From the NCBI GenBank assembly GCA_027604505.1, contig JADIIX010000080.1:1-64000 (forward strand): a DNA stretch of 64,000 nt, given 5' to 3'. The notes under the pieces were generated by a model, which was given only the letters and a program-made list of their open reading frames with translations, did not search any database and was not told the origin of the DNA. Position 1 is the stretch's first letter. Each line of letters opens with the position of its first letter. Positions 43,562-52,098 of this stretch are shown piece after piece. The translations under genes and the position numbers were made by a program. The stretch comes from Gonapodya sp. JEL0774. Its lineage: Eukaryota.

Positions 43562-43954
43562 TCATCGCGTTATTGAGTCAATGCTGAACGGATCAAAAAG
43601 GATTATTAGTTGTACGGCTTCTCGCAATGTGGGTCCATCTCTCACCGCTTTACACGATCCCAAACTATAACTCCTCTTCGCTTGAAGTAACGGATCTTGT
43701 TGATAAGCCGACGGTCAGTTTGAGTATTGTTTGCGTGCTGCATCATCTGGACTCACCCTGTGCATCGGAACGAACGCATCGTCCTCCAAAACCTTGCGAA
43801 AGCTCTCCAATGGCTGTTCTTGAATGCCCATGAAGCGATCCTCGTACCCCACGATCCATTCGCTCAGTGGATGGAGAGACGGATCCCACAATGCGCGATT
43901 GAGGAGGTCTTGTGCCGGTCGTAGGACAGACTTGGCATTTGTGGTGTCCGCCAT
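43562..43954 (-). CDS. Standalone MJ1316 (DUF504) RNA cyclic-end recognition domain protein, 3 exons
   Basis: LRPAQDLLNRALWDP..WIVGYEDRFMGIQEQPLESF..FVPMHR|IRYFKRRGVIVWDRVKR|IDSITR*. Confidence 0.85.
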
Positions 43955-44433
43955 CAGATTCGAGGAGCTCTGGTGTGTAGGAGAGTAGGGAATGTAAGTG
44001 TCGAAAGGAACCATGTCTTTCTACATGAGGTGTTGGCGAGGGTGGCGAGTGAGTGGTTCTCAGGGAGGGGTGAAAGTACGCTGCACATCACCTGTTTTGT
44101 CTACACCAGTTGTGTATGCTATGTTATAAATTGTACTTGGGTACCGGAGTAGCTTGCTTGAATCACTGAAGCGCCGCCTAGAAAGATGCGTTGAGGTCTT
44201 TCACGCCTTTGACCTCTCTAATATGCAACCATTCCCTTAGTGGAGCTGGGTGATGCATTATAGTCATCTTTTAGCGCACTGCTGAATTGTGGAAGACGCT
44301 TGCCGTGTTATATTATAGAATAATGCAGATACTGCGGTGATCGAGTATTCGGACAAACGGAATCGGGTGAACCTCCTTCTGCCGAGTTGAAGATCGTATC
44401 GGCGGTGAGCTTTCAATCAAGTACGACGCAAGC

Positions 44434-46369
44434 ATGAGATCTTCGACTCCATCCACTTCCAACAGTGATAAGTCACCGTGCCGTCTCTCGACCTCATCAA
44501 GTGGAGCAACTGCTTCTAATGAGCCCGAAGAGTTTAACGACATGTTCGCTGCACCGCCTCCTCTTAAGTTTCAGCTGAGAGCCAGAACCGCAGCCTCGGA
44601 TGAAGGATACGACAGAGTTGTGGCAGAAACGCACCTAGTGGCTTTTCAACATGGACTTTGGGGTTGGTCGGACTACATATGCTGATGTAACCCTTATCGG
44701 CTCCAAATTAATCCCCATGTTCTCTCAATAAGGAGTGCCCGATAACCTCTACTATGTAGCGAATACTTTGCGCAAGACGTACCCAGGCGTATGCGTTGTC
44801 TCGCTCAAGGCCAACGCTGGTTCTTACACATAGTATGTCGTCAGATAGTTGGTCACTGTCTTTGACCTAATCATGCTCCTTCACTTAGCGACGGCATTGA
44901 AGTTTGTGGAAAGAGATGTGCCGAAGAAGTGCGATTTACTCGTCGTGTGTATGTCGACCATGCCGTTCTACTCAGTTTCGCTTCAGGTCATATCGGTCAC
45001 AGCGTCAATTGAGCAACTCGATGTTCGCGTTTCCAAGTTCTCGTTTGTTGGATACTCACTCGGTGGATTAATTGCACGATGTGCTGCAGGAGTCCTTTGG
45101 ACACGAGGATACTTCTCTAGTCGTGTTATGATGGTAAGCTACCTTCTTCGCCCTCCCAACAGCTCCTCCTATAATCCCAAGTGGAATTTTGCACACATTC
45201 AGTCTTACAGCTCCTTTGCTACACCTCACCTTGGCGCCGCCCCTTCAACACACTCTTTTTTCGGGGTTGTCCAGAATGTAGCGGCAGTTAACCTTCTCGG
45301 TCCGACTGGAGACGACATGGCCTTCATAGGAGCAGAAAAGGGCATCAAGACCGTATTGGAGAGGATGTCTGAAGAAGAGTCGGTGGAGTACAAGGCACTA
45401 GCGGCATTCCGGAAAAGGACTCTGTACGCCAATGTTCTGGTGAGCTGCGGTTTGCAGCGAGATGTAACTGGCATAGAGCTATTCATTTAAAGCGCATTCT
45501 CGCACATACCTAAGAACGACCGAATAGTCCCGTTCTTCACGGTAGGCTTCCCATATTTCACACAGACATTAAAGGAAGGAACTATCTCACTCACACGGAT
45601 ACTCCACCTGAATACTCAGGCTTACATTGACGAGGGAGATCCTTTCACTAATTTTGATGCTGTCCAGCTGTAAGCCGAGTTATGATGATGCCCATTCGCA
45701 CCCTTGTTGAGCCCCAGCTGTCTCACCCCCTCAAGCACTTACCATCCTACCCACTCTCAAATCGTCCTTACCCACCATCCTATCCCACCACCACCACTAC
45801 CGACAACAGGGATCTCTGATATTGCGGTCTACGCCGGGGTTGGAGTGATGTTGGTTGCCGCAATACCCCTTATAATTGGAGGTTTGACTTACTCTGGGTG
45901 GAGAGCAGCCTCGGCACGACACAGAGTTGCGTCGTTCGAGACGAAATGGGAGAAGCAAGGTGACAGTTTAGAAGGACAAGGGCAGTCCAAGGACACTGAA
46001 TGGAAGCAAGAGGAACCACTTGAGGAGTCCTCCTCGGCACTATCGAGTGAGCTCGCACTCGAAGCTGCTGAAGACACGATCGGTAGGATTGTTGAGAATC
46101 CGGATGGCATGGATGTGTACACGGGAACTCCCATCCCCACCAAGATACCGACGAACACCGACAACTCTTCAACTCCAACAACCGGGATCACGAATATTCA
46201 GCTTGGTCCTCGTAGACCAATCTTCACTTCGCTCAACAAACTCGCGTGGAACAAGTTTTTGGTGTGCATTCCCCACAGGCGGAGTCATGCGGCTATTGTG
46301 GTCAGGGAGAAGAGGTGGGAGGAGTATAACGGTGCCGTAACACATTGGGTGGAAGGGTTTGAGGTATAG
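44434..46369 (+). CDS. DUF676 putative serine esterase/lipase (Rog1/Lpl1-like)
   Basis: HLVAFQHGLWG; DGIEVCGKR; FSFVGYSLGGLIAR (GxSxG); FATPHLG; RTLYANV|NDRIVPF; SHAAIVVR. Confidence 0.88.
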
Positions 46370-46872: not shown

Positions 46873-49800
46873 CTATCCAATCTGCCCCAGTCCCAAAACC
46901 TTTCCCGTCCTGAAATCCACGCCACACCACACTCCAAATTCCTCTACAGTCCTTGTAGCTCCGAGTCCGTACTTGCCACCCACTTTGTGCGCGGCGTCCA
47001 GCTCTACTTCTTTTCCAAAAGGCAAACACAACATCTTAATGACGACACCTTGACTTCTCTCCCGCTCCGCTTTCCACCCACTCAAGTCTCCTTCTAGTTC
47101 CACCTGCGTTCTGTCCCCCACCACGGTCCTCCTGTACCCCCTGGACCACCTGTGCCTCACCACGTCGTCCAGTCCAGAGAATCCCACACCAGTCCCCATC
47201 ATCGCAACGTCCAACCCCCACGCATCGGGTTCCCATGTCCACAGGTCCCATCCCCCTGTCCACGCGCGTGCAGAGTAGAGCGTTTCCTCCCCAAAAAAGA
47301 GGTGTGCAAGTGTCGGGTCCAGAGGCACATCGTCAAGCAGGGAGGCTGGGGCAAAGAGGAATCCGGCGGAGGCGAGCCGTGAGGGGAGAAGGCCAAAAGA
47401 TGTGACGGGTGTTGTGGGGACATAGGGAGAGGACGGAATGGATGCAGTGGTAGAGGAGGATCGCAGAGTTGGTGGAAGAACTTCCACGGATAGTGTTGGG
47501 ATGGAGTGCTGCTTTAACGGGTGGGAGAGTCTGCCTGAAACACGCGGCATGCCGTCCTGGTCGAAACGTGATATGTAGAGAATAACGGGACCAGTTGCGG
47601 CAGGGGAGGTTTCGGACATGGGGAGGGGAATATCATGCGTCGTGTCCGGGCGATGCAGAGTGTCGTTGACTGACGGTTTGACTGACGGGAACAAATACGA
47701 CAAAGATGACATTGATGGTTTGGGCGATGTAGAAAGCTCTGGTGGCGCATCTCCCGGAGGGTTGGCTGTTGTCGGCGGAGTCGAGGGCACGTAGTCTGGC
47801 GGGTACGTTGTGAGTATTGCCCGATTCGGGTTCGGGCACCTTCTGATCAAATCGATAAGTCGAGCGTCCCAGTGGAGACCGAAACGCTGTTCAGGAAGAG
47901 GCAAGGTGCGGTGCGAGAGTTTAGAGTGAAGAAAGTGAGTGCAGGTTGACCGCCCGACACAACATAGAAAGCCGGGCTACACTACAAAATGAAGATCTAT
48001 CGCACACCCAAGTGTTCAAATCAACCCACCATATGTGAATCCACCTGCATGTAAAACTCTTCGTCCTCCAACATGCTAGCCAACCTCGCTCTCGCCACCA
48101 CGGGCCCCGCAGCCATCCTCGCGTCGAACTTCTCCCGCCTGACGTTCCCCTTCCATGGTTCGATCACCCGATCGTCGTGAAGGTTCAGATCCTCCGGGTG
48201 GTCTTGGTAAAGCAAGCGAGCGTGCACGCGGTGAGGGCAGAGCGCTAAACTGAAGAGTGAGGCGATCGTGTGATGCGTTTCTGGGTCACGGTATGCCGGG
48301 ATGGAAACGAAGATGCGTGATGTGGTGTCTGGCGAATGGAGGAACCGCAATGGTGAAGCGGGATGGCCCTGCAACTGGCTCGTGGGTGGTCGAGCCTGCC
48401 GCCGGCGCAGCGCGTGCGCGAGGACATCGGGTGAAGGAAGGTGGAACCAGACAGAAAGTGCGGTGCGCGGGGCGTATGTGGGGAGGACAGCGTGCGTGCT
48501 GGAGGATGGGAAGATGAGAAGGCGGTCAAGGGTCGGAGTCACGTCATAGTGAAGGGAGTCTACTCAATGGGATGGGGGGGTGGTGTGTGGGAGAAGGCGA
48601 TGGCATCCACCGTTGTGATTGGTGCGCGTCCGGGTTTATTCAGAATCGGATCCCAACGGAAACCGGAGATACAGCACTCGTTCATTCTCCCTGTCTCACC
48701 TTCCCCCTCACCCTCATTCTCACAGTGCTTTCGTTCACCAGTCCCCGTGTCAGTCCTATCGTCGCCGCCAGGCCACAGCCTCAACTTGCCCCCGTCCTCA
48801 TCCTTCCACCGCTCGTTCAAATACAAAATGCACGTCATTGCCCGCGTAGGGTTCGTCGGTCCACTGTCCTTGTGTGGCACATATCTTGCACCGTTGGCCG
48901 GGTAGTGGGCGAGTTGGAGGGAAGGGGTGGAGAGAGGTACAGGGAGGTGGAGGGAAAGCGAAATGTGACGGGCGAGGGAGGCGAGACGAGCATAGAGGAG
49001 GGGGAGGATCGGATGCGGGGACCCCGACGGGGGCGTGGGGTTGGCATCCGTGTCCGGACGGCCTGTCGAGGCCTCAGGTACGGTAGCCGAGAAGGAGCTG
49101 GGTGAGAAGAATCGGACCGAGTCGCCACGAAGAGCAGGATCAATTTTTCGGGTGACACCAGTGCCCAGGCGGGCGGGGTGGAGGGATGGGAGGAGGGACT
49201 GGGGAGAAGGGGGAGTGCAGGGGAGCGGCGTGACCAGCGCCTGTTTCAGCTTTTTCCCAGATAGAACCGAAAACTAGATATCATGAATACTCGAGGAAGG
49301 AAGGACGCGGACCTGAGCCATATCAATGGACTTTCGAGTCAGATCCTCTGCCCAGGGGTGGTGGGGCATCGTGTCCCCCTGTCCTGGACCCACTACACCA
49401 CCCGAATCGGTGTGATCCAAACCACGCAACACCACACCATCTAGAGTTACGAATCCGTCTCTGGCGAGCGAATCAATGGCCTCTTCGATCGTGTGGTGAA
49501 ACCGCGCGGGGACCGAAACAGAAACAGGAGCGGAAGTTGAGGGTGGGATCGGTGTCGCGTGAGATGGTAAGGGGGAAGAGCGAGCGTTGGCATTGACGAG
49601 GGCGAGTATTTTGTTTTGGATACCCTGAAATGGGGAACGCGTTGGAATTGGAAACAGTAAGAACGAGTTTGTATGATGACTAAACGGGGAAAAGAACGAG
49701 AAGGGTAACTCGAACAGCCACTTGACTGATCACTCCCTGCGTGGCGAACACACCACAACACCATATGAGATGGGCCGTGTCCCGTCCCCTTCACGAGCGG

Positions 49801-50127
49801 ACACCTGAGGAGGAACGGCAGTCACGCACACAGAGGAGTCCCACCTGGGAAGCACCTTCACTACAATCCACTGAAATCCAGGACAATATATCGTCGGCCC
49901 TCAAAAGACCCGGCGCCCCTTTCCAAAAGCGAAACAAACGCGTTTCAGCCAGTACGGCGGTGTGTCCTTCTGTCACTGGGTGCGGTCCCAATTGCTCGGG
50001 CCGAGCCGGTGCCTGCCCCGTGAAGTGCCTGAGCAATAGGCTGGAGGAGGAAAAGTGTTTTTTCAGTTCAGTCGGTGTATTAGAGCAGAGAGAAGGGTAG
50101 ACTTATCCTGTCAACTCACTCCGTCAT
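46873..50127 (-). CDS. Bifunctional 2OG-Fe(II) prolyl 4-hydroxylase (EGLN/PhyA-like) + GT60 hydroxyproline alpha-GlcNAc-transferase (Gnt1-like); PhgA-like fusion; 5' exons approximate
   Basis: P4H: AIDSLARDGFVTLDG, PARLGTG..LRGDSV, LAHYPANGARYVPHKD, MTCILYLNERW..GGKLRLW, PTLDRLLIF..STHAVLP..RTALSVWF. GT60: IFVSIPAYRDPE, QVDSHM|RFGLHWD, AILTTYPPDY, AGFLF, LFFGEE..ARAWTGGWD, YGLGATRTVEEF..GVDF. Confidence 0.9.
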
Positions 50128-50949
50128 GGGACAGTGATGCAAATGGATTCACGCCACCCTACATTTCCGTCGATGATCCTTCCATTCCACTTCGACACGC
50201 AGTTTCACGAAAAAACTCTCAACCGCGTTCACGTCAAACATATGGAACCCGACTCCATCGCTCCGTCTGACCGTCACACCCACTTTTACTGACCTGGGGC
50301 AACTTTGCCATCTCCAGGCTCCCCTCGCTCGCTGCTTTCACCGAAGAGCTGGATGCCATCATGCGAAGAATAAGGGACCTTGGATCCGGATGGAACTGTC
50401 GACTTTGATGGAATCGAGTTTCGGACATGTATGCTGTGGCCGCCTGATCGTACCCTCATTATAGTATGTTTGGATACCTATAAAGACCAGCCCAGCTCCA
50501 CGCTCAATCTGTGTCTGACCCCGTTTGCCGCTCTGTTGCTGCAATCCACCACCATCGTTTCTGGGATGGTAGCTGCTGAAGTAAATCGATGCACATGTGA
50601 CCTCATCTTTAGCGCATCAGAAATACAAAGAAAATCCCCACCGACATACATGAATTACACACGCCAATACACCTTTTCACTGATCCACATCATGGGCTTC
50701 ACAGCTGCTCCAATGCCAATCATACTTCAAAAGCCCCTGCCAACTTGCACATCTCAATAGATTGTGTTGCTCTGGTCCTTCGTTGTATGCGCCAAAGGGG
50801 ACTTGGAATGTCGACTAAGACACACTCCCGCGACCATGTTACCCTCATCAGATGTCAATTGCCTCTGTGTATAAGCACACAGTTTGATCTGTCCTGCTCC
50901 GTCCTGCACCAATCGGCAATCCCCCTTGACCATCCTCATCCATTCCCAC

Positions 50950-52098
50950 TAGTAAGTCTTTGCCTGGCACGGGAGGTCTTTCAAACAGTATTCCACAGCT
51001 TTTTGCTTGTCCTTTACCCTTCTACCCCACCTGTGCTCATGGAGAATTCCCAAGTGTGAAACAATGTCAACCATCCCTGCATGTAGTAGAACCTCCCTGG
51101 CTCTTCCTGCATCATGCTTACACCCAACAAGACAACCATCCAAGATTGAACACATATCTCCTTGCTTTGTGGCCACTGCAAAGACTTTCTTCGCTTTATG
51201 TACATCCAGTGACAAACTTGTGGCTCACATACATCCAAGCAATGTTGCTTTGTTTTTCTTTTCCCTGTTGCATAAGACTGCTTGGTAGCCTTCCTGTACC
51301 CCTTCACAGCCTCTGCCTTGTCCTTCTGTACACCTCTGCCATTCTCCTACATGAACCCAAGATTGGGCTGCACAGGAGCTGTCCTGGTCAGCTATTCTCA
51401 TACCACCACACAGCCTCTGCCTTGTCCTTCTAAACACCTCACCTGTTCTCATACATGCACCAAAGATTGAACTGCGCTGTTGGGCATTGTGGCCTGTGAT
51501 CTGCAGTCTACGCTAGTCGCAAGAGGATGCAGTGGCTGCAAGGTGGTACAGGAAAGCTGCAGAGCAGGGCTATTCTGTTGCAAAGACTTCTCAAGTATTC
51601 TGGCATGTGATGGGTTAGGGTATATGGAGATAAAGAGACTGTGAAGGGGTACAGGAGGACCGTATGTAAGCCCGGACTGCGCCCATATGTCACCCACATC
51701 AGTGGCTCTCATGTACCACTTCACAGCCTCCTTAACGTCTTCTGCATATCTTTGTGCATAATAAAAGCAAGTGCCCAGGTCAAATTGCGCTCCAATGTTG
51801 CCTTGCTCAGCTGCATCTAGGTAGAAGTGTTGTGAAGGTCTTTGGGAAGCATCCAAAGTCCATTCTTGTGTATTCCCACGCAGAGGCAAGTTCAAATGGT
51901 TCATGCGGTGCATCTCCATCAATAAGTGACACGAGCGCAGATTGCCAGGTGTCCGGGATCGCCAACGGGAGCCCAGGAGTGGTTTCTCCCCCGATTGGAG
52001 AGGTCTGTTGCCTCTTCCTGCGCTTGGGCGGATCCGTCTGCAGCATTGCTCTCAAGAGACGACGTGATGACACTGAATAACTCTGCGATGGAGAGCAT
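50950..52098 (-). pseudogene. Degenerate Sel1-repeat gene
   Basis: FYLDAAEQGNIGAQFDLGTCFYY..DVKEAVKWYMRA; AQFNLWCMYENR*GV*KDKAEAVWWY; many stops and frameshifts; CpG-poor. Confidence 0.75.

What the first reader, a model, noticed from the sequence alone, without database searches (positions are those of the whole stretch)
46873..50127. Prolyl 4-hydroxylase-GT60 GlcNAc-transferase fusion: candidate Skp1-type oxygen-sensing glycosylation system in an apparent fungus
Seen: an EGLN/PHD-type hydroxylase with intact HxD (HKD, 48866-48874), distal His (STHAVLP) and 2OG-binding Arg (APRTAL). It runs into a GT60 domain with SIPAYRD, DSH, FFGEE and YGLG..RT..EF..GVDF motifs. The hydroxylase C-terminus and transferase N-terminus lie in one uninterrupted frame (ORF 48021-48542), so the fusion is not a splicing guess. 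No signal peptide or TM segment is evident, suggesting a cytosolic protein. Established: in Dictyostelium and Toxoplasma, PhyA hydroxylates a Skp1 proline in an O2-dependent way and Gnt1 adds GlcNAc, regulating SCF E3 ligases; oomycetes (Pythium PhgA) fuse the two enzymes. The pathway is known mainly from protists, not model fungi. Inference: this organism has a HIF-independent O2 sensor acting on Skp1 or a new substrate, from ancestral retention, HGT from oomycetes, or an independent fusion.
Basis: partly seen in the sequence, partly recalled or inferred. Interest (0 to 1): 0.9.

Follow-up and report, generated by a model that had tools for sequence, protein, structure and literature searches.

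The report
Fused Skp1 oxygen-sensing enzyme in Gonapodya
This gene of an early-branching fungus joins a proline hydroxylase and a sugar transferase in one protein that likely tags the ubiquitin-ligase adaptor Skp1 according to oxygen supply; the same fusion is known from a water mould and occurs in many early-branching fungi and algae, so it is a fungal member of a known system rather than a new one.

Summary
Confirmed. One reading frame (48563-48021, minus strand) carries the end of a PHD-type hydroxylase and the start of a GT60 GlcNAc transferase. All 15 catalytic or signature residues checked are intact. The host is Gonapodya sp. JEL0774 (100% match). The fusion is not special to it: 22 named records from 16 genera of early-branching fungi carry it, as do oomycetes (including Pythium ultimum), green algae, diatoms and Naegleria. 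A two-domain tree puts the fungi in one clade (100/99) apart from oomycetes, which favours inheritance over transfer. The literature already says pathway genes occur in 'pathogenic fungi', and this scan found the same fusion earlier in another chytrid (e1-9716074). One addition: the gene likely starts further upstream (50311), and skipping an exon of the GenBank model restores a conserved N-terminal helix on a flexible linker. It weakly resembles the first helix of an F-box (below Pfam cut-offs) and could tether the enzyme to Skp1. Skp1 activity, the host's Skp1, the downstream transferases and the binding are untested.

The parts
46873..50311 (-). Whole gene, five exons in my model (791 or 804 aa depending on one acceptor); PhyA-Gnt1 (Phgt-type) fusion
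   Evidence: Both models are open to the stop with GT..AG introns. Model B equals P0001 from its residue 7 onward.
50294..50311 (-). Exon 1, ends in Leu-Pro-Gln; first half of the N-terminal motif (an in-frame ATG at 50359 is used by the GenBank model)
   Evidence: Donor GTCAGT at 50293 scored best of 241 candidate in-frame donors against the family motif; mapped.
49754..49870 (-). 39-codon exon of the GenBank model, likely mispredicted (or optional): it splits the conserved motif
   Evidence: An insertion found only in P0001 among 26 aligned sequences, exactly inside the motif; motif score 3.7 with it, 18.0 without.
49313..49624 (-). Exon 2: second half of the N-terminal helix (49624-49595), Pro/Ser-rich linker, start of the hydroxylase domain
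   Evidence: In the Spizellomyces model the motif is helices 2-5 and 10-23, followed by a linker at pLDDT <50.
48700..49198 (-). Exon 3 (acceptor 49199, alternatively 49241): RGD motif, HKD iron ligands at 48874-48866
   Evidence: PF13640 E 4.6e-10; H274/D276 invariant in 26 of 26.
48030..48559 (-). Exon 4, the fusion junction: distal His354, 2OG-binding Arg363, linker, GT60 start, DSH (Asp505/His507)
   Evidence: Both Pfam families match this one ORF; these residues invariant in 26 of 26.
46873..47886 (-). Exon 5: rest of the GT60 domain with low-complexity insertions, FFGEE, His753, stop
   Evidence: PF11397 E 3e-23; G707/E708/E709/H753/R757/R760 conserved in 25 of 25 rows with residues.

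Best explanation
The gene encodes one protein with a PHD-type prolyl hydroxylase fused to a GT60 GlcNAc transferase, which likely works in the cytosol and likely hydroxylates the conserved C-terminal proline of Skp1 in an oxygen-dependent way and then adds GlcNAc, as its Pythium counterpart does. Shown: the fusion, intact active-site residues, no signal or membrane segment, and placement with the eukaryotic fusion family. Inferred: Skp1 as substrate, a role in oxygen sensing through SCF ligases, and inheritance from early eukaryotes through the fungal ancestor with loss in yeasts and their kin. More speculative (about 0.35): the N-terminal helix on its flexible linker docks in the F-box groove of Skp1, so that the enzyme would prefer Skp1 free of F-box proteins.
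For: Collinear with the Globisporangium (Pythium) ultimum fusion P0312 over both domains, 28% identity, E 1e-60. The family profile's best solved structure is Dictyostelium PhyA 6t8m (163.7 bits versus 158.7 for PHD2); the Spizellomyces model is 33% identical to 6t8m versus 22-26% to the PHD2 rows. The transferase half matches ppGalNAc-T1 best (Z 22.6, rmsd 3.4, 281 aligned), the known relative of GT60 (PMC8724618). 15 of 15 checked residues are invariant. Two-domain tree: 17 named fungi plus 1 unnamed form one clade (100/99); oomycetes, green algae and diatoms each form their own. PhyA enzymes act on Skp1 in Dictyostelium, Toxoplasma and Pythium (PMC7864055). Motif: 20 of 96 and 16 of 64 held-out fusions, 0 of 155 and 0 of 11 others; Pfam F-box-like in 6 of 25 hand-picked N-termini, best E 0.0028.
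Against: No biochemical data. The host genome was not held, so its Skp1 and the downstream transferases were not seen; none lies in the window among 90 + 15 ORFs scanned. The margin of PhyA over PHD2 is only 5 bits, and single-sequence searches ranked PHD2 first. Dictyostelium and Toxoplasma Gnt1 and the Golgi paralogue were not retrieved, so they are in no tree. The hydroxylase-only tree is poorly resolved and mixes three unnamed non-fungal-type rows with the fungi. The F-box likeness covers only profile positions 1-23 of 47, is under the cut-off (16.5 versus 24.3 bits for the first member), appears in only 2 of 13 further N-termini (one row dropped), and a ubiquitin-binding motif also matches 2 of 25. 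The oomycete form of the helix mostly scores below threshold.
Confidence: 0.8

Rival explanations
1. The fungal enzyme keeps both chemistries but has moved to another cytosolic substrate, and Skp1 is no longer its target.
For: PHD-type enzymes have changed substrate before (EF-Tu, Skp1, HIF; PMC7864055). The host's Skp1 and downstream transferases were not seen. The two Gonapodya proteins sit on a long stem (0.63) and carry large insertions.
Against: Architecture and N-terminal helix are shared with Naegleria, green algae and (in diverged form) oomycetes. Gnt1 is reported as highly Skp1-specific (PMC11570480).
Confidence: 0.11
2. The fungal genes came by horizontal transfer from oomycetes or other stramenopiles, or from bacteria or viruses, rather than by descent.
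For: With the transferase domain alone, a fungi-plus-oomycete clade is not rejected (p-AU 0.076) and deep branches are open. Bacteria carry GT60 and hydroxylase domains together.
Against: Gonapodya plus oomycetes is rejected (p-AU 0.003); with both domains fungi plus oomycetes is rejected, though narrowly (p-AU 0.035). Fungal subgroups are recovered within one clade. The bacterial double-domain proteins inspected have the reverse order, and named bacterial and viral GT60s fall outside.
Confidence: 0.07
3. Concerning the N-terminal helix only: it is not a Skp1 tether but a ubiquitin-binding motif, a self-association helix or a helix that packs on the enzyme itself.
For: UBM matches 2 of 25 members (best E 0.055). 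Only the first F-box helix is present. The PDB profile search gave nothing significant (best E 0.6; FBXO4 at E 1.3 and 1.7).
Against: F-box-like, F-box and PRANC matches are more frequent and stronger (6, 4 and 2 of 25). The only PDB hits covering the whole motif as one stretch were FBXO4 F-boxes. The presumed substrate is the F-box adaptor itself.
Confidence: 0.45
4. The fusion is an annotation artefact or a decaying gene.
For: Proline/serine-rich insertions and a frame change between exons 3 and 4; no transcript was seen.
Against: The junction is inside one exon, the introns are canonical, all checked residues are intact, and G. prolifera has the same fusion.
Confidence: 0.02

Closest known systems
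Pythium (Globisporangium) ultimum dual prolyl 4-hydroxylase / GlcNAc transferase (van der Wel 2019; title seen in a reference list, text not held; name Phgt recalled)
   Same: Same order of domains in one chain, same catalytic residues, 28% identity end to end with the P. ultimum fusion P0312; no membrane segment in either. That P0312 is the protein of that paper is inferred from species and architecture.
   Different: Fungal host, separate clade. Longer low-complexity insertions. The N-terminal helix is closer to an F-box start than the oomycete form is.
Dictyostelium PhyA + Gnt1 and Toxoplasma PHYa + GNT1
   Same: The family profile's best PDB match is PhyA 6t8m; same two reactions expected.
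   Different: Separate genes there (separate knockout strains). Gnt1 sequences were not retrieved for comparison.
Animal PHD2/EGLN1 (the GenBank name is 'Egl nine 3')
   Same: Same fold and iron/2-oxoglutarate site.
   Different: PHD2 acts on HIF-alpha and not on Skp1 (PMC7864055); it has no GT60 partner.
Bacterial and phage GT60 + hydroxylase proteins
   Same: The same two domain families.
   Different: Reverse order in those inspected, no N-terminal motif, and a separate part of the tree.

Membership tests
PhyA-Gnt1 (Phgt-type) fusion | PHD-type hydroxylase N-terminal to GT60 in one chain | tested here: met
PhyA-Gnt1 (Phgt-type) fusion | HxD...H iron triad and 2-oxoglutarate-binding Arg | tested here: met
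   H274, D276, H354, R363 invariant in 26 of 26
PhyA-Gnt1 (Phgt-type) fusion | GT-A fold of the ppGalNAc-T kind with DxH, distal His and GEE | tested here: met
   D505/H507/H753/G707-E709; fold tested on the Spizellomyces homologue, Z 22.6 to GalNAc-T1
PhyA-Gnt1 (Phgt-type) fusion | Cytosolic: no signal anchor or membrane helix | tested here: met
   Maximum 19-residue hydropathy 1.32; a simple scale, no dedicated predictor
PhyA-Gnt1 (Phgt-type) fusion | Groups with the oomycete enzyme family rather than bacterial or viral GT60 | tested here: met
   88 support; 74/91, weak; Golgi GT60 and Dictyostelium Gnt1 absent from the trees
PhyA-Gnt1 (Phgt-type) fusion | Hydroxylates and GlcNAcylates Skp1 | not testable with these tools
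   Needs enzymology and mass spectrometry
Skp1 glycosylation pathway | Host Skp1 with the target proline; PgtA and later transferases | not tested
   No genome held; none in the window. Fungal-type Skp1 with the proline is common in metagenomes, so the proline alone would not discriminate
F-box domain | Full motif of about 45 residues above the Pfam cut-off | tested here: not met
   Only positions 1-23 of 47 match, below cut-off; a disordered linker follows
F-box domain | Binds Skp1 | not tested
EGLN/PHD HIF hydroxylase | Closer to PHD2 than to PhyA; stand-alone hydroxylase | tested here: inconclusive
   Profile prefers PhyA by 5 bits, single sequence prefers PHD2; the fused architecture argues against

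The most novel reading that the evidence does not exclude
Early-branching fungi of five phyla kept an ancient, HIF-independent oxygen sensor on Skp1 that yeasts and moulds of the Dikarya lost, and the fused enzyme finds its substrate by F-box mimicry: a one-helix 'half F-box' on a flexible leash plugs into Skp1's F-box groove, so the sensor marks only unoccupied Skp1 and competes with F-box proteins.
Probability: 0.3. Interest if true: 0.7.

Novelty: new member of a known kind. Interest (0 to 1): 0.42.

Why it matters
[quoted passage not shown] A vertically inherited copy in at least 16 genera of early-branching fungi would place the oxygen sensor in the fungal ancestor and give non-pathogenic chytrids as test organisms. 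Stand-alone PhyA enzymes bind Skp1 weakly (Km 200-350 uM, PMC7864055), so a tethering helix would be a real mechanistic addition and is cheap to test. The core enzyme and the fusion are already known, which caps the interest.

Tried and rejected
No host genome was held, so no search for Skp1, PgtA, Glt1, Gat1 or AgtA was possible. Complex prediction of the N-terminal helix with Skp1 was not available: no verdict. RNA runs: none was listed, which is no evidence either way. The Atlas search on the N-terminal fragment did not complete; the whole-protein search gave the same family, 100% eukaryotic, score 0.94, possibly the query's own cluster. NCBIfam gave nothing useful. The PDB profile search with the motif gave no significant hit. 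Neighbouring genes (ankyrin, SNF2, KH, bZIP, MJ1316, DUF676, BAR, AAA, short-chain dehydrogenase) show no pathway cluster. No ascomycete or basidiomycete name appeared among the named rows, but those list only top hits (120 of 402) and many rows are unnamed, so loss in Dikarya is not shown. Papers not held: van der Wel 2019, West and Kim 2019 (19), the JBC Gat1 paper (24), West and Blader 2015 (25); these may already list fungal orthologues or the N-terminal helix. Considered and rejected: secretory GT60 (no signal anchor, fused to a hydroxylase), recent oomycete transfer, a start near 50127 (no fit to the family N-terminus).

Full report
Observation. The ORF 48563-48021 on the minus strand matches the end of Pfam 2OG-FeII_Oxy_3 and the start of Pfam GlcNAc (PF11397), so the fusion point lies inside one exon. 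A database protein identical over this ORF, P0001, is labelled 'Egl nine 3 [Gonapodya sp. JEL0774]'; Gonapodya is a monoblepharid fungus. Mapping P0001 on the window gives six exons; my five-exon models are also open to the stop, with GT..AG introns of 669, 72 or 114, 140 and 143 bases.

Active sites and fold. In an alignment of 26 fusions all 15 positions checked are invariant among rows that have a residue there, and the window's protein has each: R189, D191, H274, D276, H354, R363 in the hydroxylase; D423, D505, H507, G707, E708, E709, H753, R757, R760 in the transferase (P0001 numbering). An AlphaFold model of the Spizellomyces homologue (pLDDT 86.6, pTM 0.60) has two domains. The first matches PHD-type hydroxylases (Z 23-26; 33% identity to Dictyostelium PhyA, 27-29% to the three others); the second matches ppGalNAc-T1 (Z 22.6) and Toxoplasma GalNAc-T3 (Z 21.2). 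The window's own protein was not folded. The family profile ranks PhyA 6t8m first among 47 PDB matches, 5 bits above PHD2, whereas P0001 alone ranks PHD2 first. No membrane-like segment was found in 7 of 7 proteins tested.

Distribution. The fusion is common. Of 264 proteins stored, 109 had the hydroxylase-then-GT60 order; 64 of 75 new ones did too. Named fungal records number 22 (list), from 16 genera: Gonapodya, Spizellomyces, Rhizophlyctis, Borealophlyctis, Nowakowskiella, Cladochytrium, Blyttiomyces, Phlyctochytrium, Irineochytrium, Chytriomyces, Obelidium, Physocladia, Entophlyctis, Paraphysoderma, Thamnocephalis and Umbelopsis. The last three are Blastocladiomycota, Zoopagomycota and Mucoromycota; placing the other twelve genera in Chytridiomycota is from recall. 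Outside fungi it occurs in oomycetes including P. ultimum, green algae, diatoms, Guillardia and Naegleria. P0001 aligns with the P. ultimum protein over both domains (28%, E 1e-60). No Dikarya name appeared, but the lists are truncated and partly unnamed.

Origin. A quick tree of 211 GT60 domains (50 multi-repeat or short rows left out) put all 16 named fungi in one group of 24 (98) and all hydroxylase-first fusions on one side of a branch (88) away from named bacterial and viral proteins. A careful tree of 50 chosen rows gave a fungal clade at 100/99 with an open backbone. The hydroxylase-only tree (48 rows) was weaker and placed three unnamed non-fungal-type rows among the fungi. The two-domain tree (42 chosen rows, 508 columns) recovered fungi (100/99), oomycetes (100/99), green algae (100/99) and ochrophytes (95/94). 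AU tests: Gonapodya with oomycetes rejected (p 0.003); all fungi with oomycetes not rejected on the transferase alone (p 0.076) and narrowly rejected on both domains (p 0.035). The trees have no firm root and used LG+G4 without the mixture model. Descent from an early eukaryotic fused gene is the simplest reading; an ancient transfer is not excluded.

An N-terminal helix. Many fusions begin with LPxxLQLxILxLL, followed by a low-complexity linker. A matrix trained on 12 fungal proteins scored 20 of 96 and 16 of 64 held-out fusions above the 99th percentile of shuffles, and 0 of 155 and 0 of 11 other proteins. Many misses are truncated or diatom-type proteins, and the controls are largely unnamed or prokaryotic, so they are not matched. 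17 of 22 named fungal records carry it, 12 of them the training set; three of the five without (P0002, P0159, P0262) start late in the alignment, P0183 was not checked. In the window, joining exon 1 to exon 2 restores the motif and is the best of 241 candidate donors; the GenBank model's extra exon sits inside it. Pfam sees the first 17-23 positions of an F-box in 6 of 25 hand-picked N-termini (best E 0.0028) and in 2 of 13 further ones (one row dropped; the window's half-motif exon alone gave nothing); the scores shown are below cut-off, and a ubiquitin-binding motif matches 2 of 25. It is therefore not an F-box domain. Because the presumed substrate is the F-box adaptor, a tether into Skp1's F-box groove is my preferred reading (about 0.35), untested.

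Mechanism. From the literature: PhyA hydroxylates one proline of Skp1 in Dictyostelium, Toxoplasma and Pythium (PMC7864055, passages); Gnt1 adds GlcNAc, and loss of either changes F-box protein levels (PMC9485057 and PMC11570480, passages). Inferred for Gonapodya: the same two steps in one cytosolic protein. Whether the glycan is extended is unknown, since no genome was held.

Novelty. PMC8724618 (passages) says enzyme pairs of the pathway are often fused in protists and that the enzymes were in the last eukaryotic ancestor. PMC10539598 (passage) says the genes are evident in pathogenic fungi, and PMC12101541 (passage) says likewise. bioRxiv 764241 (passages and section 7) says the pathway disappeared in yeasts. 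Searches pairing the pathway with chytrid or zoosporic fungi found no relevant paper, and I saw no mention of the N-terminal helix in the passages read, but four key papers were not held and no supplements were read. This scan reported the same fusion in another chytrid (e1-9716074). Verdict: real, a new member of a known kind, interest 0.42; the breadth in early fungi and the possible half-F-box tether are the parts worth following.

Noticed in passing
window 43718-44020 (-): ORF with an MJ1316 RNA cyclic-end recognition domain (E 8e-12).
   Followed up: no
window 44849-45487 (+): DUF676 putative serine esterase exon, convergent with the fusion gene.
   Followed up: no
window 50950-52050 (-): Sel1-like repeat fragments spread over several frames with stops, possibly a decayed or many-exon gene just upstream of exon 1.
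   Followed up: no
P0214, P0221, P0228, P0251 (P0214 from the dinoflagellate Biecheleria): Eukaryotic fusions with the reverse order, GT60 then hydroxylase, forming their own clade: a likely independent rearrangement.
   Followed up: partly
P0123-P0130, P0288-P0292: Large proteins (1,088-2,461 aa) with several GT60 repeats, some with redoxin-like and 2OG domains; the named one is alphaproteobacterial.
   Followed up: no
P0073: A GT60 protein from Sicyoidochytrium minutum DNA virus groups with Fibrocapsa and unnamed stand-alone GT60s, not with the fusions.
   Followed up: no
P0002 (Gonapodya prolifera model): The annotated protein starts inside the hydroxylase domain and probably lacks its first exons.
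   Followed up: no
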